Shown here piece after piece: positions 21,425 through 35,914 of a stretch of 64,000 nucleotides of DNA; position 1 is the first letter of the stretch, and each line of letters starts with the position of its first letter. A program made the translations under genes and the position numbers. The stretch comes from Bacteroidota bacterium. GTDB lineage: Bacteria > Bacteroidota > Bacteroidia > 2-12-FULL-35-15. Under the pieces are notes generated by a model. It did no database searches and was not told the origin of the DNA. It saw nothing but the letters and a program-made list of their open reading frames with translations. The stretch spans positions 44,305-108,304 of the forward strand of contig CANIQT010000014.1 of the NCBI GenBank assembly GCA_947469885.1. The letters are read 5' to 3'.

Positions 21425-23419
21425 TTATTTTTTATCGGAATTTTCAGCTGAAGCAATATTTTTTCCAGTACTGAACATTAAAGGAACATTGCTACCCGCA
21501 GGTGACACTCGCACATATCCTTGCATCTCCTGATGCAATGCACTGCAAAAATCCGTGCAATACATTGGTGAAATTCCAACTCTATCGGGAGTCCATTTAA
21601 GTGTTTGCGTTTCCCCTGGCATAATTAATAATTCTCCATTAGTTGCACCTTTGATTGCAAAACCATGAGGAACATCCCAATCCTGTTCAAGATTTGTAAC
21701 ATGAAAATAAACTTCATCACCAATTCTAATTCCTTCAATATTATCAGGAGTAAGGTGAGAACGAATAGCAGTCATATAAACATCTACTCTGTTTTTATCT
21801 CTAACCACCTTTGTTGTACCTTCTCCCATCGAAACATAAGGATTTTTGTTTTCATCAATTTTAAATATTTTAGTACAGTTGTTTTTAAGTAAATCCGCAG
21901 GGCAAATTTGAGCATAGTGAGGCTCTCCAATTGTTGGAAAATCTAAAATCATTTGCATTTTGTCACCACTGATATCAAACAATTGGGCACTTTGAGAAAG
22001 TTCAGGACCTGTAGGCAAATAACGGTCTTTGGTAATCTTATTATATGCAACCAAATATTTTCCGTTTGGAGTTTTTGTATCACCACCAGCAACACACAAA
22101 TGTCCAACAGAATAAAAAGTAGGAGCACGATCAACAACTTTTAAATCTTTGATATTCCATTTAACAACTTCAGATGAAACAAAAAAGGATGTATAAGCAT
22201 TTCCTTTATTATCAAATTCTGTATGAAGAGGTCCTAATCCTGGTTTTTTAACTTCACCGTATAATGCAGACTCATATTTAATTACTGGAATACCATCAAA
22301 ATCACCAGCATAATCCTTAGCAGCTATTGCTTTTTGTATTTTATCAAAGCTGAAAACTGGAATTATAGCAGCCAACTTACCACTACCAACAATATATTCT
22401 CCAGTAGGATTTACATCACAACCGTGAGGTGATTTAGGACAAGGAATAAAATAACACATGTCTTTCAACTCTTTCGAATCTAGAACAATAACTTCTGTCT
22501 TAATTTCTGATGTTGCTGAATGCGTTTTATCGCTATATGTATTATGAGCATATTTTGCGGCAACTTTTCTTCCTTTGCCTGCAGCGAGATATTCTTCTGC
22601 TTTTTTCCAATTCACAGCCATAATGAAATCTTTGTCTTTTTGCGAAGCATTTACTTCCAACAAAGTGTTAGCCTGTTCAGTATTATAACAGGAAAAGAAA
22701 AACCAACCATGAGAAACTCCCTTTCCAGCGCGACTTAAATCGAAGTTTACTCCCGGACATTGAATTTGAAAGGCAATATCCAATTTACCATCTTCTTTAC
22801 CAACACTAATAAAACTTAAATAACCTTTAAAGTTTTGTTTATAAGTATTAATTGGAACGTCACCATTTGCATCATCAGCAGGAACACTGAAACGGGTTCC
22901 AGCCACAACATATTCTGTGTTCTCTGTAATGAAAGGTGAAGAGTGATTTCCTGCACTGTTTGGCAACTCAATAATTTCTGCAGTTCGGAATGTTTTTAAA
23001 TCAATACGAGCAACACGTGGAGTATTGTTTGCATTACCAAATGCCCAACGACCATCATAATCTCCATTAGTCTTAGAAAGCTGAACGTGATGTAAATCAT
23101 CCCAAGGAACAAAACCATGAGAAGTATTTAACATTGGTTTAGTTTCTTCCGAAAAACCCCAGCCTTTTTCAGGGTCAACTGAAAACACAGGAATTACACG
23201 TAGCAAACGACCAGAAGGAAGACCGTAAGCGCTCATTTGTCCACTGAAGCCACCGCTGACAAAATTATAAAACTCATCATATTTGCCTGGTGCTACATAA
23301 GCTTTTGAAGCAGCATCACCACTTACTGCGTTACTTACACTTTTTGGTTTACAAGAATTGAACGAAAATGCCACTGCAATAGCAGTTAAACCAAGCATAC
23401 TAATTTTCAAATTTTTCAT
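21425..23419 (-). CDS. nosZ: Nitrous oxide reductase NosZ, clade II (Sec-dependent)
   Basis: 664 aa. CuA site CTDFCSALHQEM at the C-terminus and a beta-propeller N-domain. The Sec/lipoprotein-like signal (rather than Tat) is typical of clade II. Confidence 0.95.
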   Translation of the reverse strand: MKNLKISMLGLTAIAVAFSFNSCKPKSVSNAVSGDAASKAYVAPGKYDEFYNFVSGGFSGQMSAYGLPSGRLLRVIPVFSVDPEKGWGFSEETKPMLNTSHGFVPWDDLHHVQLSKTNGDYDGRWAFGNANNTPRVARIDLKTFRTAEIIELPNSAGNHSSPFITENTEYVVAGTRFSVPADDANGDVPINTYKQNFKGYLSFISVGKEDGKLDIAFQIQCPGVNFDLSRAGKGVSHGWFFFSCYNTEQANTLLEVNASQKDKDFIMAVNWKKAEEYLAAGKGRKVAAKYAHNTYSDKTHSATSEIKTEVIVLDSKELKDMCYFIPCPKSPHGCDVNPTGEYIVGSGKLAAIIPVFSFDKIQKAIAAKDYAGDFDGIPVIKYESALYGEVKKPGLGPLHTEFDNKGNAYTSFFVSSEVVKWNIKDLKVVDRAPTFYSVGHLCVAGGDTKTPNGKYLVAYNKITKDRYLPTGPELSQSAQLFDISGDKMQMILDFPTIGEPHYAQICPADLLKNNCTKIFKIDENKNPYVSMGEGTTKVVRDKNRVDVYMTAIRSHLTPDNIEGIRIGDEVYFHVTNLEQDWDVPHGFAIKGATNGELLIMPGETQTLKWTPDRVGISPMYCTDFCSALHQEMQGYVRVSPAGSNVPLMFSTGKNIASAENSDKK

Positions 23420-23455
23420 AACGTTTTTTTATTATTTAGTTTAGTTTATTATTTT

Positions 23456-23956
23456 TTATTTTACTCCATCATTTTTACGCATAAATTCTAATAATGCTCT
23501 AGCATCATCGTCAGTTAGACTCTGATTAGGCATCCTAACGAGACAAATTTCCAATTGAGCTTGAGCAGCAGGGTCTTTATTAATCATTTCATCTGTATTG
23601 GTAATAAAATTCATAATCCAAGCTGGCTGATGACGACTAGTAACACCTATCCAACCTGGACCAACTAATTTTTCTGTGGTTAATTTATGACAAGCAGAAC
23701 ATTTAACGTCAAATGTTTTACTTCCTGCATCAGCCATTGCCACATCTAATTTTTCACTCAGTGCAACGTCTTTAAACTTTCCTTCTCCTCTTTTAGGATC
23801 ATATTTTTCAACACCAACTGAGGAAGGAGATTCTGCACTTGAAGCAGATGAATTGGATGATGTTGCCGCTTGATTTCCTTCTGATGAGTCACCTCCACAG
23901 GCAACAATAAAAAGCCCAAATGAACTTAGAATACTTATTGCTAATAATTTTTTCAT
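23456..23956 (-). CDS. Lipoprotein c-type cytochrome of clade II nos clusters (electron donor to NosZ)
   Basis: 166 aa. Lipoprotein signal (LFIVACGG), a single CSACH heme c motif, first gene of the nos operon. Confidence 0.8.
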   Translation of the reverse strand: MKKLLAISILSSFGLFIVACGGDSSEGNQAATSSNSSASSAESPSSVGVEKYDPKRGEGKFKDVALSEKLDVAMADAGSKTFDVKCSACHKLTTEKLVGPGWIGVTSRHQPAWIMNFITNTDEMINKDPAAQAQLEICLVRMPNQSLTDDDARALLEFMRKNDGVK

Positions 23957-24024: not shown

Positions 24025-24038
24025 ATGATTACAATCAT
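24025..24038. promoter_or_regulatory. FNR/DNR-like box aTGATtacaATCAt upstream of the nos operon
   Basis: TGAT-N4-ATCA palindrome centred about 75 nt upstream of the cyt c start codon on the minus strand. Confidence 0.5.
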
Positions 24039-24157
24039 AAGAGGTTTATTTACCAAGATGATATTATTATATCAGAATTACAAAAGACCGCAAACCACAA
24101 CAAATTCAAGTATTTTGCAATATTTTTTATTCAAACAAAATAAAAAATAAATTTAAT

Positions 24158-24171
24158 ATGATATATATCAT
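24158..24171. promoter_or_regulatory. FNR/DNR-like box aTGATatatATCAt upstream of the Crp/Fnr regulator gene
   Basis: Perfect 14-bp palindrome TGAT-atat-ATCA centred 72 nt upstream of the regulator ATG. Confidence 0.5.
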
Positions 24172-24236: not shown

Positions 24237-24830
24237 ATGATAGATACAAATATATTATTAGCATGGGGTGCAACTTTTAAAAAATATTGCCAAGGAGACA
24301 TAATTTTTGAAGAAGGGGCAAGTTGCAATTTCTATTTTCAATTAATTGAAGGTAGAGTTAAATGGGTAAATTTTAATAGTGAAGGGAAAGAGTTTATTCA
24401 AACTATAATTGAACCTAATGAGAGTTTTGGAGAACTTCCCCTATTCGATGAAGGTCCTTATGCAGCTTGTGCTATCGCAGATGAAGATTGCTTGATAATG
24501 AGATTGAAAAAAGAAACTTTTACTCAATTAATATGTGAAAATTCTGATATAAATTTAAGTTTTACAAAGTTACTTGCAAAACGTCAACGATATGAATTTT
24601 TACTTTTAAAAACCATTGCGTTTGAAAATCCAGAAAAAAGGATTTCAACCTTACTCACACATTTTAAAAACAAACAAGTAAATACAAATCGCCAACTTTA
24701 CCAAGTAAATCTTACCCGACAACAAATCGCCAATATGACTGGTTTGAGAGTAGAAACAGTTATTCGAGAAATCCGAAATTTGAATTTAAAAGGTCGCCTG
24801 CAAATAATTCATGGAAAAGTTTTTGTTTAA
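24237..24830 (+). CDS. Crp/Fnr family transcriptional regulator (likely NO/denitrification regulator, NnrR/DNR-like)
   Basis: 197 aa. N-terminal cNMP-binding beta-roll (FGELPLFDEGPY) and C-terminal HTH (TRQQIANMTGLRVETVIREI). No FNR-type Cys cluster. Confidence 0.8.
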   Translation: MIDTNILLAWGATFKKYCQGDIIFEEGASCNFYFQLIEGRVKWVNFNSEGKEFIQTIIEPNESFGELPLFDEGPYAACAIADEDCLIMRLKKETFTQLICENSDINLSFTKLLAKRQRYEFLLLKTIAFENPEKRISTLLTHFKNKQVNTNRQLYQVNLTRQQIANMTGLRVETVIREIRNLNLKGRLQIIHGKVFV

Positions 24831-24832
24831 TT

Positions 24833-24846
24833 ATGACTACGGTCAT
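24833..24846. promoter_or_regulatory. FNR/DNR-like box aTGACtacgGTCAt upstream of the nnrS-norCB operon
   Basis: TGAC-N4-GTCA palindrome centred 51 nt upstream of the ATG at 24891, immediately after the regulator stop codon. Confidence 0.5.
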
Positions 24847-24890: not shown

Positions 24891-26126
24891 ATGGAACAAA
24901 CTTTACATAAATGGATTCGAATTGCTATTATTAATCTTAATATTATTGCGTTTATAGGAATCATTTTAAGATATAAAATTGCTTTCTCACTTCCGTTCAT
25001 TGATCAAAAACATTTATTACATGGTCATTCACATTTTGCTTTTGCAGGTTGGGTAACTCAAGCATTAATGATATTAATGGTTGCTTTCTTGTATTCTAAA
25101 GGGTTAAAAAATTCTTTCAAAAAGTACTTCTGGTTACTCCTTTTTAATTTACTAACTGCATACGGAATGTTGATTTCTTTTCCAATAGAGGGTTACGGAC
25201 TTTTCTCGATAACCTTTTCTACTCTTTCCATTTTCGTGTCTTACTTTTTTGCTGTGATTTTTTGGAAAGATTTGAATAGCCTAAAATCAACTTCTTCAAG
25301 CCATCTATGGTTCAAAGCCGCTATAATACTAAATTCAATTTCTTCTCTTGGAGCATTTGCATTGGCATTTATGATGGCTAAACATATTATACATCAAAAC
25401 TGGTATTTATCCTCTGTTTATTATTATCTGCATTTTCAATATAACGGATGGTTCTTTTTCGCTTGTATCGGCCTTCTTATTGATAAATTAGAATCTTATA
25501 AAATTTACAGTAAATTATACAAATTAATTTTCTGGCTTTTCTTTATCGCTTGTTTCCCTGCATATTTTTTGTCTACTTTATGGATGTCAATTCCAACTTG
25601 GACTTACATTATAGTTATACTTTCAGCAATAACGCAGGTTGTAGCCTGGTTTTTACTTATAAGAATAATGTATCATAATCTAGATACTTTGAATAGGGTT
25701 ACTACATTAGCATCAAAATGTTTGTTTTCTTTATCTGCGTTTGCACTATCTGTTAAGTTTCTTTTACAATTAGGTTCAACCTATCCTTCTTTAAGTACAT
25801 TAGCTTTTGGATTTCGTCCAATCGTAATTGGGTATTTGCATTTGGTCTTACTTGGTGCTATAACAATTTTTATTATTGGATATTTGGTAGCAAGAAATTT
25901 TGTTTCGATGAAGCGAAAATCCATTTTCGGTATGTGTATTTTTGTTTTTGGTATCATTTTTAATGAAATACTTTTGATGACTCAGGGTATTGCTGGTTTA
26001 AAATATGAAAGTGTTCCATTTACAAATGAATTACTTCTAATTGCGTCCATAATTATGTTTTCTGGAATATTGCTATTTGTTATAGGGCAGTACAAAAACA
26101 AATTACAATTACAAAATTCCGAATGA
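24891..26126 (+). CDS. Polytopic membrane protein, probable NnrS family (heme-copper NO-response protein)
   Basis: 411 aa, about 12 TM helices. The HGHSHFAFAG motif resembles the NnrS HxHExxFGF copper site. Translationally coupled (ATGA overlap) to norC. Confidence 0.45.
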   Translation: MEQTLHKWIRIAIINLNIIAFIGIILRYKIAFSLPFIDQKHLLHGHSHFAFAGWVTQALMILMVAFLYSKGLKNSFKKYFWLLLFNLLTAYGMLISFPIEGYGLFSITFSTLSIFVSYFFAVIFWKDLNSLKSTSSSHLWFKAAIILNSISSLGAFALAFMMAKHIIHQNWYLSSVYYYLHFQYNGWFFFACIGLLIDKLESYKIYSKLYKLIFWLFFIACFPAYFLSTLWMSIPTWTYIIVILSAITQVVAWFLLIRIMYHNLDTLNRVTTLASKCLFSLSAFALSVKFLLQLGSTYPSLSTLAFGFRPIVIGYLHLVLLGAITIFIIGYLVARNFVSMKRKSIFGMCIFVFGIIFNEILLMTQGIAGLKYESVPFTNELLLIASIIMFSGILLFVIGQYKNKLQLQNSE

Positions 26127-26536
26127 AACACTACTGGAAAATATATTTTTTTACTTTACTCCAAATTGGTTTCTTTATCTATTCATATATTTTATATTCT
26201 TCAAATTCCTTCCAATATCGAAACGACTACAAAAGTTCGTCTGCTCAACAAGGAGAGCTAGTTTGGCAAAAATACAATTGCCAGAGTTGCCATCAAATGT
26301 ACGGCCTAGGTGGGTATTTAGGACCTGACTTAACAAATGTAATTTCAGTAAAAGGGAAAAACAATAACTACATTCTAGCAATAATAAAATCAGGCTCCAT
26401 CCAAATGCCTTCGTTTAATTTAAGTGACGTTGAAAAAATAAATTTAATTGAATTCCTTAAATCAACTGATGCAAGTGGAAAGGCAGATCCAAGAAGTTTC
26501 GATTCACAATTCACAGGTATGATATCTAATAAATGA
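26123..26536 (+). CDS. norC: Nitric oxide reductase cytochrome c subunit NorC
   Basis: 137 aa. N-terminal membrane anchor and the GELVWQKYNCQSCHQMYGLGGYLGPDLTNV heme c region. The 4-bp overlap with the next ORF (heme-copper oxidase subunit I-like) indicates translational coupling. Confidence 0.75.
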   Translation: MKHYWKIYFFTLLQIGFFIYSYILYSSNSFQYRNDYKSSSAQQGELVWQKYNCQSCHQMYGLGGYLGPDLTNVISVKGKNNNYILAIIKSGSIQMPSFNLSDVEKINLIEFLKSTDASGKADPRSFDSQFTGMISNK

Positions 26537-27876
26537 AAACCACTAATGAATATAGTATTGGAGAATACTTTATAGCTGTTGCCCTTATAATGCTAATATT
26601 TGGATTAATTTTCGGTGTACTTGCTTCTGCTAATTATATCTTTCCAGCGTATTCCAAAAATTGGTTGGGTTTTGTCCAACTTCGCCCGCTACATGTTTCA
26701 AGCATTATGTTTTTTATTTTGATAGGCGCAAGTGGTTGTGTTTATAGTAGTTTTAATATCATCTCTCCATATAAAATAAATAATTCATTAGCAAAACTTC
26801 AATTAGGATGTTGGATCCTTTCGATCATTTTCATATTATTTTCTTATTTCAATTCCAAATTCGGAGGGAGAGAGTATTGGGAGTTCCCTCCTAAGTATGC
26901 TATTTTAATAGCGTTTACCTGGTTGTTATTTATTATTAATGTTATTCGAATTATTAGAGAAACAAAAGAAAAACCAGTTTATATTTGGATGTGGGCCACA
27001 GGAATTTTCTTTTTTATTCTCACATTTTCCGAAAATTATCTTTGGCAGTTTCCTTATTTCCGAGAACATTTTGTAAAAGATATGACAATTCAATGGAAGG
27101 CAAATGGCTCCCTTGTAGGTTCTTGGAATCAATTAATCTACGGTACATCCTTTTTTTTAATCGAGAAAATAAGTAAAAATAAATCATATGCTAAATCTAA
27201 TTTAGCGTTCGTTATGTATTTTCTTGGGTTGTTTAATCTGATGTTTAATTGGGGGCATCACATTTATACACTACCTACAGACAGCTACGTGCGTTATGTT
27301 AGTTATATAGTAAGTATGACAGAATGGATTTTCCTTGCACGAATAATTTATACCTTCAGAAAAAATTTAACCGAAGCACAAAAGTTATTTCATCATTTCC
27401 CTTATCGCTTTTTATTTGCTTCCGAAATATGGGTATTCTTAAATTTATCTCTTGCACTTGTTATGTCAGTACCTGCTTTTAATTTATATACACACGGAAC
27501 TCATGTTACTGTAGCACATGCTATGGGCACTACAATTGGGATAAATACGATGATATTGCTGGGAGCTTGTTTCGAGTTTTTAAAACCAGAAACCGATTTA
27601 TTATCTAATGGCTCAAAATTGCTAAAGTTCTTTTTCTGGAGCTTTCAAATAACACTTTTTGTTTTTTGGATAACTCTAATAATCATGGGAATTAAAAAAG
27701 GTTTATGGCAAATGGGAAATCAGTCTGATTCGTTCAACATGATGATGAGCACGCTACATGGAGAGTTTCAAGTATTTGTTGTTTCAGGGTTTATGCTCAT
27801 GATTTCATTAGTGGTAATAATTATTTCATTGCTTAATTCATTTTTTAGAAATCATTTTCAATTCAAAACAATATAA
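26533..27876 (+). CDS. norB: Nitric oxide reductase large subunit NorB (heme-copper oxidase family, cNOR type)
   Basis: 447 aa, 12 TM. Conserved His pairs (WGHHIYT; HGTHVTVAHAMGT) in helices expected for FeB/heme ligation. Confidence 0.75.
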   Translation: MKTTNEYSIGEYFIAVALIMLIFGLIFGVLASANYIFPAYSKNWLGFVQLRPLHVSSIMFFILIGASGCVYSSFNIISPYKINNSLAKLQLGCWILSIIFILFSYFNSKFGGREYWEFPPKYAILIAFTWLLFIINVIRIIRETKEKPVYIWMWATGIFFFILTFSENYLWQFPYFREHFVKDMTIQWKANGSLVGSWNQLIYGTSFFLIEKISKNKSYAKSNLAFVMYFLGLFNLMFNWGHHIYTLPTDSYVRYVSYIVSMTEWIFLARIIYTFRKNLTEAQKLFHHFPYRFLFASEIWVFLNLSLALVMSVPAFNLYTHGTHVTVAHAMGTTIGINTMILLGACFEFLKPETDLLSNGSKLLKFFFWSFQITLFVFWITLIIMGIKKGLWQMGNQSDSFNMMMSTLHGEFQVFVVSGFMLMISLVVIIISLLNSFFRNHFQFKTI

Positions 27877-27880
27877 TAAT

Positions 27881-29272
27881 ATGGAAAATTTTAAAACCAT
27901 TATTGAACCATTTAAAATAAAAATGGTCGAACCCATTCATCTCAGCACTGCCGAACAACGCAAAGAATATTTAAGAGAGGCGCACTACAACCCCTTTGCA
28001 TTGGATTCTGATAAAGTGATAATCGATTTTCTTACCGACAGCGGAACTTCTGCGATGAGTTCCAATCAATGGGCAGGAATGATGCAGGGTGACGAATCGT
28101 ATGCAGGAGCTAGTAGTTGGCATAAAATGAGGAACAGTATTTTTGATTTGACTGGACACGAATTCATATTGCCAACACATCAAGGCAGAGCTGCGGAGCG
28201 TATTTTGTATGGTTATCTCGGAGGGAAAGGAAAAACATTTATCAGCAATACACACTTTGATACCACACGTGCCAACATCGAATTTTCAGGTGCCGAAGCT
28301 ATTGATATACCTTGTGAAGAAATAAAGAACAATAAACATTTTTATCCATTTAAGGGAAATATGGATTTAATGAAATTGGAAAAACTAATTATAGAAAAAG
28401 GTCCCGAAAATATCGCAGCGGTAATTCTAACCGTTACTAACAATAGTGGTGGTGGGCAACCTGTAAGTATGGAAAATGCAAAATCCATTTCAATTATTTG
28501 TAAAAAATATAAGATAAATTATTTTCTCGATTGTTGCAGAGTTGCTGAAAATTCTTACTTCGTGAGGCACCGAGAAAAGGAATATGAACACAAAACCTAC
28601 CTAGAGATTGCACAGGAATTGTTTTCACTAACTGATGGTGCAATAATGAGTGCAAAAAAAGATGCCCTGGTTAACATGGGTGGATTTCTTTCTTTGAAAA
28701 ACAAAGAACTAGCTGATGCTTGTAAGAACTTACTGATTATCACAGAAGGATTTGCTACTTATGGTGGTCTTTCTGGACGTGACATGGAAGCAATAGCAAT
28801 TGGTTTGAAAGAGGTGTTCGAACCTGATTATTTACATTATCGCATAACAAGTACTACTTTTCTCGGTGATAAATTAAAAGCCATGGGAGTTCCATTAATT
28901 TATCCGATTGGCGGACATGCAGTATATATTGATGCGAAAGAGCTTTACAATCATATTCCAATTCATGAGTATCCAGGTCAGGCTTTGGTTTGTGAATTAT
29001 ATTTAACAGGAGGAATAAGAACTGTTGAAATTGGTTCGGTTATGTTTGGCAAATATGATGAAGACGGAAAATTAATCCCCGCCCCAATGGAATTAGTTCG
29101 TTTAGCAATTCCAAGAAGGGTGTATACTCAAAGCCACATAGAATATGTGATTGAAGTATTCGAAAAAATAATGCTGAATAGACATAAAGTAAGAGGACTA
29201 AAAATTACAGAAGAACCAAAGTTCTTAAGACATTTTACAGCTAAATTTGAAAATTTAACTGACATATTTTAA
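27881..29272 (+). CDS. tnaA: Tryptophanase / tyrosine phenol-lyase family beta-eliminating lyase (PLP-dependent)
   Basis: 463 aa. The N-terminus MENFKTIIEPFKIKMVEPI and the PLP-lysine region SAKKDALVNMGG are highly characteristic. It starts 5 bp after norB. Confidence 0.88.
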   Translation: MENFKTIIEPFKIKMVEPIHLSTAEQRKEYLREAHYNPFALDSDKVIIDFLTDSGTSAMSSNQWAGMMQGDESYAGASSWHKMRNSIFDLTGHEFILPTHQGRAAERILYGYLGGKGKTFISNTHFDTTRANIEFSGAEAIDIPCEEIKNNKHFYPFKGNMDLMKLEKLIIEKGPENIAAVILTVTNNSGGGQPVSMENAKSISIICKKYKINYFLDCCRVAENSYFVRHREKEYEHKTYLEIAQELFSLTDGAIMSAKKDALVNMGGFLSLKNKELADACKNLLIITEGFATYGGLSGRDMEAIAIGLKEVFEPDYLHYRITSTTFLGDKLKAMGVPLIYPIGGHAVYIDAKELYNHIPIHEYPGQALVCELYLTGGIRTVEIGSVMFGKYDEDGKLIPAPMELVRLAIPRRVYTQSHIEYVIEVFEKIMLNRHKVRGLKITEEPKFLRHFTAKFENLTDIF

Positions 29273-29295
29273 TAAATTTTGAAACCATAAATAAC

Positions 29296-30210
29296 ATGAA
29301 AAAACTACTATTTATAGCCGCAATCATTACTACAACCTCTGCCTTCAGTCAATGTGCCTGTTGCGCCGGATCTTTTACTGGAGCATCGAACGGAGATGCC
29401 AACAACGGTATTCTAACATTAAACGAAAAACAATTTGTCGTCGAAGCATATGCAGATTACAGAACTGTACAATCTGGGGAAGTAATTGAAGATGAGGAAA
29501 AGCTCTTACAAAGTATGTTTATTGGGTCCGTGGGGGCTCGATATGGAATAACCGATGAAATAACTATTTCTGGACTAATCCCTTATGTGCAGTTGCATAC
29601 CAGCAATGGAAATGATAAAGGGGTAGGCGATTTATCATTGCTCGGAACTTTTAGAATTCATAGTAAAAATAATTTCAGCATTGCTTTGCAAGAAGGCGTA
29701 GAGTTGCCCACCGGCATTCAAAAAAATTCTAATTTCGATAACACAACAGTCGTTATCGGCTCAGGTTCTTACGACCCCATCACAGGAATCATTATTTCCA
29801 AAAAGCTAAACAAATTTACTATTCGCCTAAATGTCCTTTATAAATTTACTACTCAGGGATTTCAACAAAATTATTACGGTAGTGTGGCTTCTCATAACGC
29901 TTCTGTTTTTTATAATCTCAAAACGGTGAACGCCTGCTATCCTACTGATAGTGTAGTAAACATACACTCCGATTTTGGATGCAATCTCTCACTCGGCTAT
30001 TATGGCGAATGGCTCGATAAAATTAAAGAAGATAATGTGGTGGATGAAAACTCGGGCTACTATGCAGCATTTGCAAACATAGGAACAATTCTTCTTTATA
30101 AAAAATGGAGTTTGCCTGTAACCATTTCTTTACCTATAATCTCACAAATGAACGGCTCCCAAAACAATCCGGGTTACAGATTGCGAATCGGAATAATTAA
30201 ATCTTTTTGA
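29296..30210 (+). CDS. Secreted hypothetical protein, probable outer-membrane beta-barrel (MetA/phenol-degradation-pathway-like transporter)
   Basis: 304 aa. Signal peptide, Cys-rich start (SQCACCAGS), alternating hydrophobic beta-strand pattern, C-terminal aromatic residue. Confidence 0.45.
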   Translation: MKKLLFIAAIITTTSAFSQCACCAGSFTGASNGDANNGILTLNEKQFVVEAYADYRTVQSGEVIEDEEKLLQSMFIGSVGARYGITDEITISGLIPYVQLHTSNGNDKGVGDLSLLGTFRIHSKNNFSIALQEGVELPTGIQKNSNFDNTTVVIGSGSYDPITGIIISKKLNKFTIRLNVLYKFTTQGFQQNYYGSVASHNASVFYNLKTVNACYPTDSVVNIHSDFGCNLSLGYYGEWLDKIKEDNVVDENSGYYAAFANIGTILLYKKWSLPVTISLPIISQMNGSQNNPGYRLRIGIIKSF

Positions 30211-30469
30211 GAAAAGAAAAAATACTAAAAATGTTACTTTACAGAAGCATTATTCAATGACAATTAATTTTCATTTAAACTCCTTTGAATTGGAAAAACA
30301 GAAGCACTTGAAGTTAAATAATATGATTTTAATCACATTTATTTTGTACAAAACGAATCACTGTTCATAAAACTTACTGAATGTTTACAACTGTAAATTT
30401 TTGCAGTATCTTCTCTTTATAACTTGCACTCAAAATTTATTCTTCATCTTACAATTAAAAAAAATCAGT

Positions 30470-33052
30470 ATGTCAATCCTCCACACACCTTCAAAAAAAG
30501 ACTATTCAAAGGTTACTTCTTATACCTATAATGAAGTGTTCGAAAAATGTTTGATTTATTTTCAGGGCGATGAACTGGCGGCATCCACATGGATAAATAA
30601 ATATGCAATGAAAAATAAGGAAGGAAAATATTTGGAACTCACTCCTGAAGACATGCACATTCGTATGGCAAAACAATTTGCCCGGAAAGAAAATGAGTAT
30701 AAGGAAAAAACGTATCTCAACGGGAGTTTAAAACTATTGTCTGATTACGGGCAGGAACGCACTCTGTTAAGTGAAGATAAAATACTTAACTACTTTCGAA
30801 ATTTTAAATATATCATTCCCCAAGGCAGTGTAATGTCTGCTTTGGGCAATCCTTTTATTATCGCATCTCTTTCTAATTGTATTGTATTACCTGAAATATA
30901 CGATTCCTATGGAGGAATATTTTACACCGATCAGCAAATGGCACAGTTGTTCAAAAGGCGGTGTGGAGTGGGGGTAGATATTTCTACGCTTCGTCCTGCA
31001 GGGAGTGATGTTTCCAATTCTGCCGGAACTACAACAGGTGCAGTGTCGTTCATGGAACGGTTTTCGAACACTACACGCGAAGTAGCACAAAACGGCAGAC
31101 GGGGTGCATTGATGATCACCATTGATATTGCTCACCCCGACATTGATAAGTTTATTACCATAAAACAAGATTTATCTAAAATAACAGGAGCTAATATTTC
31201 TGTGCGTTTGTCCGATGAGTTTATGAATGCGGTGAAAAACGATACAGATTATATGTTGCGTTTCCCAATTGATTCCCCTGCTCCAGAGTATTCAAAAACA
31301 TTAAAGGCACGCGATTTATGGAACACTATTATTAAGTGCGCCCACAACACTGCCGAGCCCGGATTAATTTTTTGGGACCGTCAGCATCATTATTCCACAT
31401 CCTCTGTTTACCCCGGTTTTAAAAATGTTTCCACCAATCCTTGTTCCGAAATAGCTATGCAGGGAGGGGACAGTTGTCGCTTAATTGCACTCAATCTTTT
31501 TAATTTTATTGATAAACCATTTACCAATGAAGCAACATTTGATTACAAAAAATTCTCTGAAACAACTTATGAAGCACAACGGCTGATGGATGATTTAGTA
31601 GATTTAGAACTTGAACATATAGAACGAATTATTTCGAAAATAAAATCAGATCCCGAGCCTGACTTTATTAAACAAGTAGAAAACGAAACATGGAAATTAC
31701 TTTACGATGCAGGGAAAAAAGGAAGAAGAACAGGACTAGGATTTACAGCATTGGCAGATGCCATGGCAGGTTTAGGTTTTAAGTTTGATTCGCCCGAAGC
31801 TCTTGCCGAAGTCGAAAAAATAATGAAAACAAAATGCGAAGCAGAATTCAACAGTTCGATTGATATGGCTATCGAGCGCGGAAAGTTTGAAGCATTTAAT
31901 CCTGAGATTGAAAATATCTCGGAGTTTATTCAGATGATGAAAATAGAATTCCCGGATGTATATAATAGAATGATGAAACACGGAAGAAGAAATATTTCAC
32001 TCAGCACAGTGGCACCTACAGGCACATTGAGTATGCTTGCACAGTCTTCTTCGGGAATAGAACCTGTGTTTTTACTTTCTTATAAAAGAAGAAAAAAAAT
32101 AAATCCTTTAGATAAAAATGTGCGTGTTGATTTTACCGATGCAAGTGGTGATTCGTGGCAGGAGTTTGAAGTATATCATCATAAATTAAAACGCTGGATG
32201 GAATTAACCGGAGAAAATAATAGTACTAAAAGCCCGTACAACGGCTCCACAGCAACCGAGATAGACTGGCTGAAACGAATAGAGTTACAATCCATTGTTC
32301 AGAAATATACCACACACTCCATCAGTTCTACCATCAATTTGCCAAACAATGTGAGTTTGGAGAAAGTTGGAGAAATATATTTGCAGGCTTGGGAGCAAGG
32401 ATTAAAAGGCATTACGGTGTATCGCGATGGTTCTCGTTCCGGAGTTTTAATTTCATCGAATGAGGAAAAGAAGCAAATCAAAACAAATGAAATTATTGAA
32501 TCGGTTGCTCCCAAACGCCCAGAAAAGCTTGAGGCTGAAATTATCCGCTTTATGAATCACGATGAAAAATGGATTGCATTTGTTGGAGTGCTGAACGGAA
32601 AGCCTTACGAAATATTTACAGGTAAATCAGAGGACTCCTTTGTAATTCCTTCGTGGGTGAATACAGGATGGATTATCAAAAACATTTCGAAAGATGATTT
32701 TCAAAAACGATATGATTTTCAGTACCTCGATAGAGATGGATACAAAGTTACAATAGAAGGACTTTCCCGCTCGTTTGATAAAGAGTACTGGAATTATGCA
32801 AAATTAATTTCAGGTGTGTTGCGTCATGGAATGCCTATTACTAGCGTTGTTGATTTAGTTGAAAATCTCAATCTATATAACGACAGAATAAATAATTGGA
32901 AAAATGGAGTCGGGCGATCGTTAAAAAAATTCATTCCTGATGGAACACAGGCGAAGGATAAAACATGCAGCAATTGTGGAGATGCAGATGGATTAATATA
33001 TGAAGAAGGTTGTTTGAAATGCAAGAGTTGCGGACACTCGAAATGCGGTTGA
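30470..33052 (+). CDS. nrdJ: Adenosylcobalamin-dependent ribonucleoside-diphosphate reductase (class II RNR, NrdJ)
   Basis: About 860 aa from the MSILHTP start (the ORF opens at 30401, but the Met at 30470 is more plausible). RNR barrel motifs and a C-terminal Zn-ribbon tail CSNCGDADG...CLKCKSCGH typical of class II. Confidence 0.88.
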   Translation: MSILHTPSKKDYSKVTSYTYNEVFEKCLIYFQGDELAASTWINKYAMKNKEGKYLELTPEDMHIRMAKQFARKENEYKEKTYLNGSLKLLSDYGQERTLLSEDKILNYFRNFKYIIPQGSVMSALGNPFIIASLSNCIVLPEIYDSYGGIFYTDQQMAQLFKRRCGVGVDISTLRPAGSDVSNSAGTTTGAVSFMERFSNTTREVAQNGRRGALMITIDIAHPDIDKFITIKQDLSKITGANISVRLSDEFMNAVKNDTDYMLRFPIDSPAPEYSKTLKARDLWNTIIKCAHNTAEPGLIFWDRQHHYSTSSVYPGFKNVSTNPCSEIAMQGGDSCRLIALNLFNFIDKPFTNEATFDYKKFSETTYEAQRLMDDLVDLELEHIERIISKIKSDPEPDFIKQVENETWKLLYDAGKKGRRTGLGFTALADAMAGLGFKFDSPEALAEVEKIMKTKCEAEFNSSIDMAIERGKFEAFNPEIENISEFIQMMKIEFPDVYNRMMKHGRRNISLSTVAPTGTLSMLAQSSSGIEPVFLLSYKRRKKINPLDKNVRVDFTDASGDSWQEFEVYHHKLKRWMELTGENNSTKSPYNGSTATEIDWLKRIELQSIVQKYTTHSISSTINLPNNVSLEKVGEIYLQAWEQGLKGITVYRDGSRSGVLISSNEEKKQIKTNEIIESVAPKRPEKLEAEIIRFMNHDEKWIAFVGVLNGKPYEIFTGKSEDSFVIPSWVNTGWIIKNISKDDFQKRYDFQYLDRDGYKVTIEGLSRSFDKEYWNYAKLISGVLRHGMPITSVVDLVENLNLYNDRINNWKNGVGRSLKKFIPDGTQAKDKTCSNCGDADGLIYEEGCLKCKSCGHSKCG

Positions 33053-33082: not shown

Positions 33083-34885
33083 CTATTCGAAACCGTATTT
33101 AAGTTTTATTTCAGTAATGTCATTTATAGCATTTTTTAATTCATTATTAAAGGCTTCCCAGTTAAGAATTAAGCCTTCTTTCAGATTTTGATAATAAACA
33201 ACTGCTTCTGAAATATTGTGAATAAAAGATTGATAATAGGTTTTTCCTTTACTGTCTTTTGTATCACCATTTCCCTGTATAAGTTCTTTTTTCAGATACT
33301 TAATATAAATTTTCATTTCAGCAATAAATACATGAGGACGTTGTTTGTTCGTAATTAAATCCTTTCTTCCATAAATGTGGTCCACCATTGTTTTTAAAGA
33401 AACTATCTGGGAAAAATTTGCGATGTTAGGACCGGGACAAATATTTACTGCATTCAGGTTTTTTAAAAATGGTTCATTATATCTGATGGAGGCTGCATTG
33501 CTAAGCCCTACACATAAACATTTTTTTGCAAGAACATCTTCCTTTTGTTTTTTATATTCTTCTTCCGGAAGATGAAGTGTTTTTAATTGTTCGAGTTTCA
33601 ACTTCTGGTACCTGCGAGAAGCAGTGCAAATGGGTTCAGTTGTAAATTCAGTGTTAAAACCCAAATGTTTTTCAGCACAAGGGCTGCCTGGTTTACCATC
33701 TTTTATTCGTTGAATTTTTTCTGCATCGGCTGTAGTTCCCTTTAAATAATAAAATTTAACTCCAAGAGGAGAATTATTGCTAAGTACCACATCTTTTTCG
33801 GTTGCATTTTTCAGGAGATTCAAGGTGTGCTCATCCACCGTAGTTGCTTCAGGAACTAACAAAAAAGGCGTTCCCCAACCAGTACTTGATATATCATAAT
33901 ATTCCAGAAGGAAATTTGCTTCTTCAGCTGTTCCTATTCCACCTTGCGCAGAAACTGCAATTGTAGGATAAAATGTAAAATCGAAACCAAGTTTTTTATT
34001 TATTGCCTGTTTATAAAGTTCAAAAATAGTTTCAGCTAATTCTTTTCTTTTGTTTTTAAATTCTTCAAGTATTGGTCCTAACAAATAACCATCAGTAGCA
34101 AAAGCATGTCCTCCGCAGTTCAATCCTGATTCGATTCGGAACTCAGATACCCATATTCCTTTTTTAGCTAAAAATTTTCCTTGTATCAATGCGGAGCGGT
34201 AATCGCTCACTTTTACAATTACTTTTTTATTGAATTCAAATTTTTCGTTTGGGTCAAAAGCATTAAATTTTTCGAGATACATAAACAATCTTGGATTCAA
34301 TCCTGCTGAAAAAACAATGGAGGAATTTGTTAAATCGCTTTTGAGATAACCACTCAATGCGGCAACAGCATCCGAGCCATCCACTATTGCATTTCCATTT
34401 GCATCACGATTTTCTCTATCGGTTTTCGTCATTATATTTACATCAATACTGCCGACAACAATTTGAGAGCGCAAATAAGTTTGTTTGATTGCTTTTTCAC
34501 TTTCATTGGCACAGTTCACCATTTCGTAATATAAAGTTTTTAACCGACTTTCGTCTGGGAGCATATCAAAATATTTAACAATTTCAGAACCCACTTCAAA
34601 TGATTCCGATTTTAGTTTTTCCATTTGTTGATGAACAATTGTGTTTACCAGATTCAAATAGTCTGTAATTCTTTTTGCTCTGTAATCAGGTTCCTGTCGG
34701 ATTATCGGGACGTAAGGTTTATTGATGAGAGGATAATAATGTTTGCGCATCATCTCCACTAGGCGATCTTCTATTATAGAAACTACTGATGTTATACCAA
34801 AACGTGCTACCTTGATTGGAGAGTCGATAGTATAACATAAACCCATTACAGGGATATGAAAATTGTGTACGTTGGTGTTTTTCAT
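33083..34885 (-). CDS. Hypothetical 600-aa protein with a weak FMN-dependent TIM-barrel (NMO/2-nitropropane dioxygenase-like) signature
   Basis: Long clean ORF. SAQGGIGTAEEA...GWGTPFLLVPEA resembles the GGI...GTRFL phosphate-binding tail of NMO-family enzymes. The remainder is unrecognised. Confidence 0.55.
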   Translation of the reverse strand: MKNTNVHNFHIPVMGLCYTIDSPIKVARFGITSVVSIIEDRLVEMMRKHYYPLINKPYVPIIRQEPDYRAKRITDYLNLVNTIVHQQMEKLKSESFEVGSEIVKYFDMLPDESRLKTLYYEMVNCANESEKAIKQTYLRSQIVVGSIDVNIMTKTDRENRDANGNAIVDGSDAVAALSGYLKSDLTNSSIVFSAGLNPRLFMYLEKFNAFDPNEKFEFNKKVIVKVSDYRSALIQGKFLAKKGIWVSEFRIESGLNCGGHAFATDGYLLGPILEEFKNKRKELAETIFELYKQAINKKLGFDFTFYPTIAVSAQGGIGTAEEANFLLEYYDISSTGWGTPFLLVPEATTVDEHTLNLLKNATEKDVVLSNNSPLGVKFYYLKGTTADAEKIQRIKDGKPGSPCAEKHLGFNTEFTTEPICTASRRYQKLKLEQLKTLHLPEEEYKKQKEDVLAKKCLCVGLSNAASIRYNEPFLKNLNAVNICPGPNIANFSQIVSLKTMVDHIYGRKDLITNKQRPHVFIAEMKIYIKYLKKELIQGNGDTKDSKGKTYYQSFIHNISEAVVYYQNLKEGLILNWEAFNNELKNAINDITEIKLKYGFE

Positions 34886-35907: not shown

Positions 35908-35914
35908 TTAATTT

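What the first reader, a model, noticed from the sequence alone, without database searches (positions are those of the whole stretch)
24891..30210. Tryptophanase-family lyase and an outer-membrane beta-barrel are co-operonic with nnrS-norC-norB
Gaps between consecutive genes are -4, -4, 5 and 24 bp, so all five genes are probably one transcript driven from the FNR-like box. Coupling NO reduction with a tryptophan indole-lyase (or tyrosine phenol-lyase) is unusual. It suggests indole (or phenol) production is induced together with NO detoxification. The following 304-aa beta-barrel resembles aromatic-compound outer-membrane channels and might export or import the product.
Basis: partly seen in the sequence, partly recalled or inferred. 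Interest (0 to 1): 0.6.

Follow-up and report, generated by a model that had tools for sequence, protein, structure and literature searches.

The report
Tryptophanase inside a low-oxygen respiratory operon
A genuine tryptophanase gene sits in one operon with an unusual respiratory haem enzyme in an uncultured Bacteroidota bacterium, and this pairing, or one with tyrosine phenol-lyase, recurs in dozens of other species under one shared regulatory DNA motif, so indole and phenol production there probably switches on with low-oxygen respiration.

Summary
Five same-strand genes (24891-30210) are packed with spacings of -4, -4, 4 and 23 nt. No terminator lies at the junctions, and one Crp/Fnr-type palindrome (24833-24846) lies upstream.

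The gene labels need correcting:
- The lyase is a true tryptophanase. It has E. coli TnaA's specificity residues (Asp127, Val382/Ile384, His451-Phe452), not those of tyrosine phenol-lyase (TPL).
- "norB" is not canonical NorB. It is a divergent haem-copper oxidoreductase (HCO): the helix-VI metal His is Asn, there is no FeB Glu, and the low-spin haem is His/Met.
- "nnrS" has no NnrS signature.
- The barrel is a COG4313/PF13557-type channel.

The main result is that the linkage is conserved. In 54 of 81 loci from different Bacteroidota species, a tryptophanase and/or TPL gene lies in the same directon as the cytochrome c-HCO pair, in several gene orders. The same palindrome also precedes tryptophanase genes that are not next to the HCO. 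In the window it marks nosZ, nrdJ, nadA and a desaturase.

The lyases are therefore members of a low-oxygen/NO-type regulon, most likely giving oxygen-independent access to Trp/Tyr carbon and nitrogen. The OMP link is lineage-specific. The role of indole in NO detoxification is untested.

The parts
24833..24846 (.). Crp/Fnr-type palindrome ATGACtacgGTCAT, the likely activator site of the operon promoter
   Evidence: The pattern occurs 6 times in the window against 0.35 expected. It lies 45 nt upstream of the start at 24891. The same motif is conserved upstream of regulon genes in other genomes.
24237..24830 (+). Crp/Fnr-family transcription factor (197 aa), without the N-terminal Cys cluster of E. 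coli FNR; candidate regulator of the box
   Evidence: Pfam cNMP_binding plus HTH_Crp_2. It is below all NCBIfam equivalog cut-offs. Its pairing with the box is inferred from adjacency only.
   Evidence: No Pfam or NCBIfam hit even at E <= 5. The family has 1660 cluster representatives. None of 31 members matches NnrS, and His46 and His181 are invariant.
26123..26536 (+). Membrane-anchored monohaem cytochrome c (137 aa), the electron-entry subunit of the HCO
   Evidence: PF13442 and PF00034, with a weak match to the NorB cytochrome-c-like domain. It lies immediately upstream of the HCO in 77 of 81 loci, mostly overlapping it.
26533..27876 (+). Non-canonical haem-copper oxidoreductase subunit I (447 aa): metal site His242/His243/Asn192, high-spin haem His329, low-spin haem His54/Met331, no cross-link Tyr, no FeB Glu
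   Evidence: PF00115. It gives only weak matches to cbb3 CcoN (E 1e-9) and NorB (E 2e-5) in the PDB. The residues are conserved across 79 orthologues and contrast with the canonical NorB paralogues.
27881..29272 (+). tnaA: tryptophan indole-lyase (463 aa, cytoplasmic, PLP-dependent)
   Evidence: PF01212; NCBIfam tryptophanase subfamily model 673 bits against a cut-off of 285. It aligns without gaps to C. freundii TPL. Its 18-position active-site signature matches E. coli TnaA at 17 of 18 positions, including Asp127, Val382, Ile384, His451 and Phe452.
29296..30210 (+). COG4313/PF13557-type 12-stranded outer-membrane barrel (304 aa) with an invariant N-terminal QCACCAG motif
   Evidence: Homologues carry PF13557 and are named 'transporter'. 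The AF2 model (pLDDT 70.8) matches 4RL8 at TM 0.63-0.72. The motif is invariant in 20 sequences. Adjacency to tnaA is seen only in L092.
30323..30336 (.). Box variant ATGATtttaATCAC upstream of nrdJ, which marks a separate promoter after the operon
   Evidence: One-mismatch match in the 259-nt spacer. The nrdJ start at 30470 comes from the gene call.
30470..33052 (+). nrdJ, class II (B12-dependent, O2-independent) ribonucleotide reductase; same regulon
   Evidence: TIGR02504 NrdJ_Z 473.8 bits against a cut-off of 399.95.
33083..34885 (-). p600: very conserved uncharacterised protein, probably an FMN-type TIM-barrel oxidoreductase with conserved Cys motifs; in other genomes it is the first gene of the lyase-cytc-HCO operon
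   Evidence: No Pfam hit. It has more than 8000 homologues, all 'hypothetical'. The AF2 model has pLDDT 67.5, with weak Foldseek hits to PfaD/DfnA enoyl reductases. It is present in 36 of 80 loci.
34938..34951 (.). Box variant ATGATtctaATCAC between the divergent p600 and nadA genes
35002..36703 (+). nadA (quinolinate synthase) and nadX (aspartate dehydrogenase): O2-independent quinolinate synthesis; same regulon
   Evidence: PF02445 at 7e-122; PF01958; NCBIfam aspartate dehydrogenase models matched at 208 bits, below their equivalog cut-offs. NadA/NadB sit between p600 and the lyases in many loci.
36842..36855 (.). Box upstream of a fatty-acid desaturase gene (36910-37998)
24025..24171 (.). 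Two boxes (24025-24038 and 24158-24171) in the divergent region between the cytochrome c-nosZ cluster and the Crp/Fnr gene
21425..23956 (-). nosZ (664 aa) with its upstream cytochrome c (166 aa), followed by nosL; same regulon
   Evidence: ORFs. The cytochrome c and NosL Pfam hits are. nosZ is identified from its translated sequence and from 76-84% identical nosZ matches beside the HCO in L005, L047, L057 and L070; it was not scanned against Pfam.
16478..17124 (+). Box (16478-16491) and a fasciclin-domain protein gene (16552-17124), a regular member of the regulon elsewhere
   Evidence: The box precedes fasciclin genes in 23 of 26 cases in other loci.

Best explanation
The five genes form one transcription unit of a Crp/Fnr-type low-oxygen (possibly also NO-responsive) regulon.

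Proposed mechanism (inferred): a Crp/Fnr-family factor, probably the one encoded just upstream, binds the palindrome ATGAY-N4-RTCAT about 45 nt ahead of the first gene. It then switches on a membrane protein (p411), a monohaem cytochrome c, a non-canonical haem-copper oxidoreductase, tryptophanase and a COG4313 outer-membrane channel. Through further copies of the box it also switches on nosZ, class II ribonucleotide reductase, p600, nadA-nadX, a fasciclin protein and a desaturase.

Within this programme tryptophanase (and, in most related genomes, tyrosine phenol-lyase) is an oxygen-independent way to use aromatic amino acids. It splits Trp or Tyr into pyruvate and ammonium, and leaves indole or phenol as by-products. 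The oxygenase-dependent routes cannot run without O2. Pyruvate then feeds substrate-level phosphorylation and the electron chain that ends at the cytochrome c-HCO.

Shown by sequence: the operon anatomy, the tryptophanase identity, the altered HCO active site, the conserved linkage and the conserved box.

Inferred: the signal (low O2 or NO), the catabolic role, and the HCO's substrate (NO, N2O or other).
For: Operon anatomy:
- Tight spacing and no terminators.
- A single box upstream and none before tnaA.

Lyase identity:
- Tryptophanase signature matches E. coli TnaA at 17 of 18 positions.

Conserved linkage:
- 59 of 80 HCO loci have a lyase within 8 kb.
- 54 of 81 loci have it in the same directon, in at least five gene orders.
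- Median gaps are 16 nt (TPL to cytc) and -4 nt (tryptophanase to cytc).

Catabolic partners in the same directons:
- Proline dehydrogenase in 30 loci.
- ADP-forming acyl-CoA synthetase between TPL and cytc in 11 loci.

O2-independent alternatives in the same neighbourhoods:
- NadA/NadB or NadX, NrdDG or NrdJ.
- The NO/Fe-S markers Rrf2 and RIC.

The box:
- Of 82 sites in 80 loci, 71 are intergenic, concentrated before p600, fasciclin and the cytochrome c gene that precedes nosZ.
- In lyase-centred metagenome loci without an adjacent HCO, 13 of 29 sites lie 70-160 nt upstream of the tryptophanase start.
Against: - There are no expression data. The effector of the regulator is unknown, and it lacks FNR's cysteine cluster.
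- Very tight, sometimes overlapping, lyase-cytochrome c junctions are more than co-regulation alone requires.
- Most close tryptophanase relatives in metagenome contigs are not next to the HCO. The coupling is asymmetric.
- The presence of O2-dependent Trp/Tyr pathways in these genomes, which the argument assumes, was not tested. None is in the window.
- The sigma-70 promoter scan is not valid for Bacteroidota, so an internal promoter inside the HCO gene cannot be excluded.
Confidence: 0.5

Rival explanations
1. Indole, or phenol from TPL, is itself the useful product. It would be made together with NO reduction as a signal, a protectant or a trap for nitrosating species, and the COG4313 barrel would move it across the outer membrane.
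For: - The lyase is co-operonic with a cNOR-related enzyme, and NO-stress genes (Rrf2, RIC) recur nearby.
- Both lyases keep strict substrate-recognition residues.
- The barrel belongs to a family implicated in passage of hydrophobic molecules (PMC4493636).
- The tnaA-OMP pair with the same 23-nt spacer is kept in L092.
Against: - The OMP is absent from all 80 HCO loci and lies next to a lyase in only 1 of 7 other contexts.
- The HCO lacks NorB's defining ligands, so NO reduction is unproven.
- Proline dehydrogenase and acyl-CoA synthetase in the same directons fit fuel supply better.
- From general knowledge, indole crosses membranes without a protein.
Confidence: 0.15
2. Direct biochemical dependence. 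The HCO, which has no cross-linked tyrosine and only two metal histidines, would need a lyase product or side activity. Candidates are phenol or indole as a diffusible redox or radical partner, or sulfide from the lyases' cysteine desulfhydrase side reaction for Fe-S or metal-centre assembly or repair.
For: - Lyase-cytochrome c junctions overlap or are very short in many genomes.
- Adjacency survives several rearrangements.
- The HCO has an unprecedented active site for the C-family/cNOR branch.
- Fe-S repair and Fe-S enzymes cluster nearby: RIC, Rrf2, NadA, NrdG.
Against: - 27 of 81 loci have no lyase in the directon.
- Lyases with the same box occur far from any HCO.
- There is no precedent for a free phenol or indole cofactor in this superfamily.
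- Conservation of Trp/Tyr-specific residues argues against cysteine as the main substrate.
Confidence: 0.12
3. Damage clean-up. Under nitrosative stress the lyases would remove nitrated or nitrosated free tyrosine and tryptophan, and the FabK/nitronate-monooxygenase-like p600 would deal with nitro compounds.
For: - p600 weakly resembles FMN enoyl-reductase (PfaD/FabK-type) TIM barrels. From general knowledge these belong to the same fold family as nitronate monooxygenases.
- p600 heads the lyase operons.
- NO-stress genes are nearby.
Against: - The structural match of p600 is weak (TM about 0.3, pLDDT 67.5).
- No evidence was found here that these lyases act physiologically on nitrated substrates.
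- The co-encoded catabolic enzymes are not explained.
Confidence: 0.05
4. The adjacency has no functional meaning and is a chance insertion of tnaA and an OMP gene behind a respiratory operon.
For: - The gene order seen in the window (HCO then tryptophanase) is shared only with its closest relatives L001-L004.
- The OMP position is lineage-specific.
Against: - Lyases accompany the HCO in 54 of 81 loci across families of Bacteroidota, despite rearrangements.
- The shared regulatory box precedes lyase genes even where they are unlinked.
Confidence: 0.03

Closest known systems
Tryptophanase TnaA (E. coli tnaCAB; P. vulgaris; P. gingivalis PG1401)
   Same: Same fold and length class. PLP lysines Lys259/Lys260, Tyr74, Arg103 and Arg407 are present. 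The indole-recognition residues Asp127, Val382/Ile384 and His451-Phe452 match E. coli Asp137, Val394/Ile396 and His463-Phe464.
   Different: Only 45% identical to E. coli TnaA, and below the equivalog cut-offs of TIGR02617 and NF053783. It has no E. coli-type insertions and aligns gap-free to TPL. There is no tnaC leader and no TnaB permease. The gene is embedded in a respiratory operon behind a Crp/Fnr-type box rather than under CRP-cAMP with Trp-dependent antitermination.
Tyrosine phenol-lyase (Citrobacter freundii TPL)
   Same: Gap-free alignment over 450 residues at 44% identity. In most related genomes a true TPL (55-61% identical to C. freundii TPL, with the Thr/Met/Arg/Phe-Phe signature) occupies the position immediately upstream of the cytochrome c-HCO pair.
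   Different: The window enzyme has Asp, Val, Ile and His where TPL has Thr124, Met379, Arg381 and Phe448. It is therefore not a TPL.
cNOR NorCB (P. aeruginosa, P. denitrificans)
   Same: A two-gene unit of a small membrane-anchored monohaem cytochrome c followed by a roughly 450-aa, 12-helix HCO subunit. It has no cross-link tyrosine. It keeps the HH pair, the high-spin haem His, and glutamates equivalent to the REYWE/RKFLE and MTEW/ALEPL motifs.
   Different: The helix-VI FeB His is Asn192 and the FeB Glu is absent. The low-spin haem ligand is His to Met. Identity to real NorB paralogues in the same neighbourhoods is 17-19%, and those paralogues, not this enzyme, carry NorQ/NorD.
The uncharacterised HCO family 'closely related to cNOR', proposed as a putative membrane N2O reductase (Murali et al. 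2024, PMC11214002)
   Same: It lies on the C-family/cNOR branch, lacks the tyrosine, is linked to Bacteroidota (the proposal cites Flexibacter canadensis) and is of similar abundance: 293 GTDB genomes there against 404 relatives found here.
   Different: Identity with that family could not be tested because the paper's datasets are not held. The paper does not mention the lyase linkage. The window also carries nosZ in the same regulon, so an N2O-reductase role would be redundant here.
COG4313 outer-membrane channel Pput2725 (PDB 4RL8; PMC4493636)
   Same: A 12-stranded barrel of similar size, and the best structural match (TM 0.63-0.72). Homologues score on PF13557.
   Different: 13-14% sequence identity. 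The window protein itself is below Pfam detection. It carries an invariant N-terminal QCACCAG motif not described for that family. Its substrate is unknown.
FNR/DNR/NnrR-type regulons of denitrifiers
   Same: A Crp/Fnr-family factor next to nos and nor-like genes, and a TGA-N6-TCA-core palindrome about 40-80 nt upstream of target genes.
   Different: The half-site is ATGAY (or GTGAC) rather than TTGAT. The regulator lacks FNR's Cys cluster. The regulon membership is unusual: tryptophanase, TPL, p600, NadA, fasciclin and a desaturase.

Membership tests
Tryptophanase (tryptophan indole-lyase, EC 4.1.99.1) | Beta-eliminating lyase fold with the PLP-binding Lys-Lys pair and the catalytic Tyr and Arg residues | tested here: met
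   PF01212 at 3.6e-67. Lys259/Lys260, Tyr74, Arg103, Asp217 and Arg407 align with the TPL and TnaA catalytic residues.
Tryptophanase (tryptophan indole-lyase, EC 4.1.99.1) | Indole-specific residues: Asp (E. coli 137), Val394/Ile396, His463-Phe464 | tested here: met
   Asp127, Val382, Ile384, His451 and Phe452. The signature is identical to E. coli TnaA at 17 of 18 positions.
Tryptophanase (tryptophan indole-lyase, EC 4.1.99.1) | Score above curated family cut-offs | tested here: inconclusive
   The subfamily model NF009709 is passed (673 against 285). The equivalog models TIGR02617 (519 against 826) and NF053783 (540 against 750) are not.
Tryptophanase (tryptophan indole-lyase, EC 4.1.99.1) | Cleaves L-tryptophan to indole, pyruvate and ammonium | not testable with these tools
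   This needs an enzyme assay.
Tyrosine phenol-lyase | Phenol-binding residues Thr124, Met379, Arg381 and Phe448 (C. freundii numbering) | tested here: not met
   The window has Asp, Val, Ile and His at these positions. TIGR02618 scores 496 against a cut-off of 721.
cNOR NorB | HCO subunit I fold with an adjacent monohaem cytochrome c subunit | tested here: met
   PF00115 at 1.2e-28. The cytochrome c gene overlaps the HCO gene by 4 nt.
cNOR NorB | FeB site of three His plus one Glu (WWxxHLWVEG and GHH motifs) | tested here: not met
   QWK[VA]NGSLVGSWN replaces WWVVHLWVEG: His becomes Asn and there is no Glu. Only His242/His243 remain.
cNOR NorB | Bis-His low-spin haem b (the helix-X H-x-H motif) | tested here: not met
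   AHAM replaces MHGH, so Met331 stands in place of the second His in all 79 orthologues.
cNOR NorB | NorQ/NorD maturation genes associated | tested here: not met
   None is in the window. In L031, L041, L044, L065 and L068, NorQ/NorD follow the canonical NorB paralogue, not this HCO.
cNOR NorB | Reduces NO to N2O | not testable with these tools
   This needs biochemistry.
cbb3 oxidase CcoN | Three CuB histidines and a helix-VII cross-link tyrosine | tested here: not met
   The helix-VI His is Asn, and Phe stands where CcoN has the tyrosine (alignment). TIGR00780 scores 54 bits against a cut-off of 583.
NnrS | Match to the NnrS family model (PF05940) | tested here: not met
   There is no hit at E <= 5 for the window protein, nor at E <= 0.1 for 31 family members down to 33% identity.
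COG4313 / PF13557 outer-membrane channel | Sequence match to PF13557 | tested here: inconclusive
   The window protein gives no hit at E <= 5. Most homologues at 55-62% identity carry PF13557 in the precomputed annotation.
COG4313 / PF13557 outer-membrane channel | 12-stranded barrel resembling Pput2725 | tested here: met
   The AF2 model has pLDDT 70.8 and pTM 0.72. The best PDB match is 4RL8, at E 3e-9 and TM 0.63-0.72.
COG4313 / PF13557 outer-membrane channel | N-terminal segment occluding the lumen; passage of hydrophobic substrates | not testable with these tools
   The N-terminal 38 residues are modelled below pLDDT 50. No transport data exist.
Single operon under a Crp/Fnr-type site | Same strand, short gaps, no internal terminator or box, one upstream site | tested here: met
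Single operon under a Crp/Fnr-type site | One transcript, induced by the regulator | not testable with these tools
   This needs RT-PCR or RNA-seq and binding assays.

The most novel reading that the evidence does not exclude
The non-canonical haem-copper enzyme (two His plus Asn at the metal site, His/Met low-spin haem) and the aromatic amino-acid beta-lyases form one functional machine. In this reading the enzyme's chemistry depends on a lyase product. For example, free phenol or indole might serve as the radical or proton partner that replaces the missing cross-linked tyrosine, or might trap a reactive nitrogen intermediate. That would be a new kind of respiratory or detoxifying reaction, specific to Bacteroidota.
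Probability: 0.07. Interest if true: 0.9.

Novelty: new variant of a known kind. Interest (0 to 1): 0.6.

Why it matters
Indole and phenol are potent signals and toxins, and are usually discussed for gut bacteria. Here their production appears to be wired into the low-oxygen/denitrification programme of widespread freshwater, soil and wastewater Bacteroidota. This predicts that anoxia or NO, rather than tryptophan alone, controls their release.

The result also gives the first concrete physiological context for a haem-copper enzyme family whose function is an open question; it was proposed in 2024 as a possible membrane N2O reductase. That context comprises partners, a regulator site and co-regulated genes.

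It also flags p600, a very conserved unknown enzyme, as the lead gene of the same operons.

Finally, automated 'norB'/'cnorB' calls in Bacteroidota MAGs may include this non-canonical enzyme. That would affect inferred N2O budgets.

Tried and rejected
- **p600.** The structure is only moderately confident, and its matches to enoyl reductases are weak. No function was assigned.
- **Cultured host.** The search through p600 failed. The Haliscomenobacter hydrossis protein is not on record. In a Haliscomenobacter sp. genome p600 lies away from any HCO or lyase.
- **Murali et al. 2024.** The supplements are not held, so membership of the 'N2O red' family could not be checked.
- **Literature.** Searches for tryptophanase or TPL together with nitric oxide reductase, denitrification, nosZ or anoxia found nothing relevant.
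- **Promoter and terminator scan.** The sigma-70 scan gave counts equal to chance and does not apply to Bacteroidota promoters.
- **RNA elements.** Rfam found no leader or riboswitch. No terminator hairpin follows the OMP gene.
- **Database names.** Cluster look-up returned no names for p411, the cytochrome c, the HCO or the regulator.
- **Horizontal transfer of tnaA.** Considered and rejected. The slightly higher GC (0.36-0.38 against 0.30-0.31) also applies to other soluble-protein genes nearby, and relatives keep the same arrangement.
- **Assembly chimera.** Rejected, because 14 independent contigs carry the arrangement.
- **O2-dependent pathways.** Window genes outside 16-38 kb are ordinary housekeeping and type IX secretion genes, with no oxygen-dependent Trp/Tyr pathway genes.

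Full report
**1. The observation**

ORF listing gives five consecutive + strand genes:
- 24891-26126 (411 aa)
- 26123-26536 (137 aa)
- 26533-27876 (447 aa)
- 27881-29272 (463 aa)
- 29296-30210 (304 aa)

The first two junctions are 4-nt overlaps. The third leaves 4 bases and the fourth 23 bases.

The terminator scan finds nothing at any junction, and its four hits equal the chance expectation. Rfam finds no RNA element in 16-38.5 kb.

A perfect palindrome, ATGACtacgGTCAT, lies at 24833-24846, 45 nt before the first start codon. The pattern ATGAY-N4-RTCAT occurs six times in the window against 0.35 expected. No copy, even with one mismatch, lies in the HCO gene ahead of the lyase.

The identical gene string is found on 14 contigs from separate assemblies; the longest is a 112-kb metagenome scaffold. 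The 3' end is not marked by a hairpin, but the next gene has its own box.

**2. What the five genes are**

*The lyase is a tryptophanase.* It has the beta-eliminating lyase domain and passes the NCBIfam tryptophanase subfamily model. It falls below the equivalog cut-offs for TnaA and for tyrosine phenol-lyase. It aligns to Citrobacter freundii TPL over 450 residues without a gap, with an offset of +3. Residues can therefore be read directly.
- Thr124, Met379, Arg381 and Phe448 of TPL are Asp127, Val382, Ile384 and His451 here.
- This is exactly as in E. coli TnaA (Asp137, Val394, Ile396, His463).
- All catalytic residues are kept. The 18-position signature matches E. coli TnaA at 17 positions.

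The assignment of these positions as the specificity determinants rests on established structural work on TPL and tryptophanase, recalled from general knowledge.

*'norB' is not canonical NorB.* The 447-aa protein is in the COX1 superfamily. It matches solved cbb3 CcoN and NorB only at E 1e-9 and 2e-5. Across 79 orthologues the invariant residues are Arg51, His54, Tyr105, Arg113, Glu117, Trp171, Trp188, His242, His243, Tyr245, Glu264, His321 and His329. Three features depart from cNOR:
- The helix-VI metal histidine is Asn192. It is Tyr in four sequences and Gly in one.
- The FeB glutamate is missing.
- The helix-X H-x-H motif is H-A-M, so the low-spin haem would be His/Met ligated.

In five loci a real NorB lies nearby at 17-19% identity. 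It carries WWVVHLWVEG, GHHYYY and MHGH, and is followed by RIC, NorQ and NorD. The window enzyme is therefore a distinct paralogous family, not cNOR.

Murali et al. 2024 mention an uncharacterised family 'closely related to cNOR' that might be the membrane N2O reductase of Flexibacter canadensis. This is probably the same family, but I could not test that.

*'nnrS' is not NnrS.* The 411-aa protein has no family match at E <= 5. None of 31 members of its family, which has 1660 cluster representatives, hits NnrS. The label is unsupported.

*The cytochrome c.* The 137-aa protein is a monohaem cytochrome c.

*The barrel is a COG4313-type channel.* The 304-aa protein gives no Pfam hit itself. Its homologues at 55-62% identity carry PF13557 and are named 'transporter'. 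An AF2 model (pLDDT 70.8) best matches the COG4313 channel Pput2725, PDB 4RL8, at TM 0.63-0.72. That family is implicated in passage of hydrophobic molecules (PMC4493636). All 20 aligned members share an invariant QCACCAG motif right after the signal peptide.

**3. The linkage is conserved**

A genome-collection scan with the HCO returned 404 relatives. The best 80 loci are all from Bacteroidota metagenome-assembled genomes of different species, with HCO identity of 51-72%.

| Feature | Count |
|---|---|
| Cytochrome c gene precedes the HCO | 77 of 81 loci |
| Lyase homologue within 8 kb of the HCO | 59 of 80 loci |
| Lyase in the same directon (same strand, all gaps under 200 nt) as cytc-HCO | 54 of 81 loci, window included |

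The lyases fall into two clean classes:
- Tryptophanases, 62-85% identical to the window enzyme, with the same signature.
- True tyrosine phenol-lyases, 55-61% identical to C. freundii TPL, with the Thr/Met/Arg/Phe-Phe signature.

Of the 80 loci, 25 have TPL only, 20 have both in tandem, 11 have tryptophanase only, 3 have only a lyase fragment that could not be classified, and 21 have none.

The junctions are short:
- TPL to cytochrome c: median 16 nt (n = 28).
- Tryptophanase to cytochrome c: median -4 nt (n = 6).
- The lyase follows the HCO in eight loci, which is the arrangement in the window.

The modal architecture is p600-[NadA-NadB]-[tryptophanase]-[TPL]-[ADP-forming acyl-CoA synthetase]-cytochrome c-HCO-[proline dehydrogenase | PTPS-like | Rrf2].

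Retention of adjacency through at least five gene orders argues for selection, not inertia.

The OMP is absent from all 80 loci. Among seven other OMP contexts:
- Only L092, the closest relative (lyase 95% and OMP 76% identical), has tnaA-OMP, with the same 23-nt spacer.
- One sits beside a Crp-p411-fasciclin-cytochrome c-HCO cluster.
- The rest are unrelated.

**4. The regulon**

With one mismatch allowed, the box also appears at two further sites:
- 30323, in the spacer before the class II ribonucleotide reductase gene nrdJ.
- 34938, between the divergent p600 and nadA-nadX genes.

Together with 16478 (fasciclin), 24025 and 24158 (cytochrome c-nosZ and the Crp/Fnr gene), 24833 (this operon) and 36842 (a desaturase), seven intergenic sites lie within 21 kb.

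Across the 80 loci there are 82 sites, of which 71 are intergenic. They lie upstream of fasciclin (23 of 26), p600 (22 of 38), the nosZ-linked cytochrome c (6 of 8), a thioredoxin-like gene (7 of 11), and also Rrf2, RIC, p411, Crp and lyase genes.

I also took the lyase's point of view with a metagenome scan. Most close tryptophanase relatives are not next to the HCO. They do repeatedly sit with NadA/NadB, p600, a PTPS-like gene and a small protein, f11. In 13 of these loci the same palindrome lies 70-160 nt upstream of the tryptophanase start. That is 13 of only 29 sites in 511 kb.

The lyases are therefore regulon members whether or not they are physically fused to the HCO operon.

**5. Most likely mechanism**

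The regulon joins three kinds of gene:
- Terminal reductases: nosZ and the HCO.
- Oxygen-independent substitutes for oxygen-requiring steps: class II or III ribonucleotide reductase, and NadA with NadB or NadX for quinolinate.
- NO/Fe-S stress genes (Rrf2, RIC) and an O2-requiring desaturase of the kind often raised under hypoxia.

The enzymes fused to the HCO are amino-acid catabolic: proline dehydrogenase, TPL and tryptophanase. An ATP-yielding acyl-CoA synthetase is often inserted between them.

The simplest reading is a low-oxygen programme. In it, Trp and Tyr can no longer be degraded by oxygenases, so they are split by PLP lyases to pyruvate and ammonium. Indole and phenol are released as by-products. 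Reducing power is passed to the cytochrome c-HCO.

The anatomy, identities, linkage and box are shown. The signal, the catabolic purpose and the HCO's substrate are inferred. I give this 0.5.

The rivals are:
- A direct biochemical dependence of the odd HCO on a lyase product or side activity (0.12).
- Removal of nitrated amino acids (0.05).
- Meaningless adjacency (0.03, contradicted).

**6. Comparison with what is known, and novelty**

Each part is a member or relative of a known kind: tryptophanase, TPL, the C-family/cNOR branch of haem-copper enzymes, COG4313 channels and Crp/Fnr regulons.

Four things appear to be new:
- The systematic operonic and regulatory coupling of aromatic amino-acid beta-lyases to a non-canonical haem-copper enzyme.
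- The ATGAY-N4-RTCAT regulon itself.
- The position of p600 at the head of the operons.
- The altered active site of this HCO: Asn in place of the helix-VI metal His, and His/Met ligation of the low-spin haem.

No paper in the searchable library describes the lyase-HCO link. I rate it a new variant of a known kind, with interest 0.6.

It is surprising to a specialist. It also gives a handle on an open question, namely what this HCO family does. The physiological meaning rests on inference and needs expression and enzyme data.

Noticed in passing
window 33083-34885 (-); L007, L010, L017 and others: p600 is a 600-aa protein with no Pfam or NCBIfam family and more than 8000 homologues, all called 'hypothetical'. 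The listed relatives are 63-73% identical. It has many invariant Cys, Gly and Pro motifs (GLNCGGH, CLCVGLSN, ICPGPN). It is the first gene of most lyase-cytochrome c-HCO operons, and in the window it is divergent from nadA. The model suggests an FMN-type TIM barrel distantly like PfaD/FabK enoyl reductases.
   Followed up: partly
window 16478, 24025, 24158, 24833, 30323, 34938, 36842: Seven intergenic copies of the palindrome ATGAY-N4-RTCAY lie within 21 kb. They define a local regulon: fasciclin, nosZ cluster, Crp/Fnr gene, HCO operon, nrdJ, p600/nadA-nadX and a desaturase. An eighth perfect copy at 49114 lies inside an ORF (48688-49890) and was not examined.
   Followed up: partly
window 29296-30210, residues 19-25 of the protein: An invariant QCACCAG motif directly follows the signal peptide in all 20 aligned COG4313-type barrels. 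Three clustered cysteines at the mature N-terminus suggest metal or thiol chemistry, or lipidation. One homologue lies near an HMA-domain gene (L091). In three other genomes a small (80-137 aa) unannotated gene usually precedes the OMP.
   Followed up: partly
L018, L031, L041, L044, L065, L068: Canonical cNOR genes (norC-norB-RIC-norQ-norD) lie next to, or in the same directon as, the non-canonical cytochrome c-HCO pair. Some genomes therefore carry both enzymes side by side, which argues for different functions.
   Followed up: partly
L075, L077, L078, L079 (HCO residue equivalent to Asn192); L072: In four orthologues the Asn that replaces the metal histidine is Tyr (QWKSYGSM), and in one it is Gly. 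The four Tyr variants are among the loci with no lyase in the HCO directon.
   Followed up: no
window 35002-36703: The window pairs nadA with an aspartate dehydrogenase (nadX type). Most related loci have nadA-nadB instead, and there these genes sit between p600 and the lyases. NAD synthesis genes are interleaved with Trp/Tyr lyases in lyase-centred loci too (L109 and L110: TPL-NadA-NadB-tryptophanase).
   Followed up: partly
L109-L123 (metagenome contigs): Tryptophanase-TPL tandem pairs (gaps of 2-84 nt in the HCO loci) are widespread in Bacteroidota contigs, whether or not the HCO is nearby.
   Followed up: partly
L093, L096, L114, L123 and many HCO loci (family f11, about 143 aa): A small protein without a Pfam match recurs directly upstream of tryptophanase or next to p600. 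From its sequence it looks like a pyridoxamine-phosphate-oxidase-like split barrel. This resemblance was not tested.
   Followed up: no
window 36910-37998: An oxygen-requiring fatty-acid desaturase carries the same upstream box as the anaerobic-type genes. This fits a hypoxia response rather than a strictly anoxic one.
   Followed up: no
window 12839-16291 (-): A 1150-aa protein secreted by the type IX system has PNGase F-like, LamG and Por_Secre_tail domains. It is divergent from the fasciclin gene and shares the intergenic region that holds the 16478 box.
   Followed up: no
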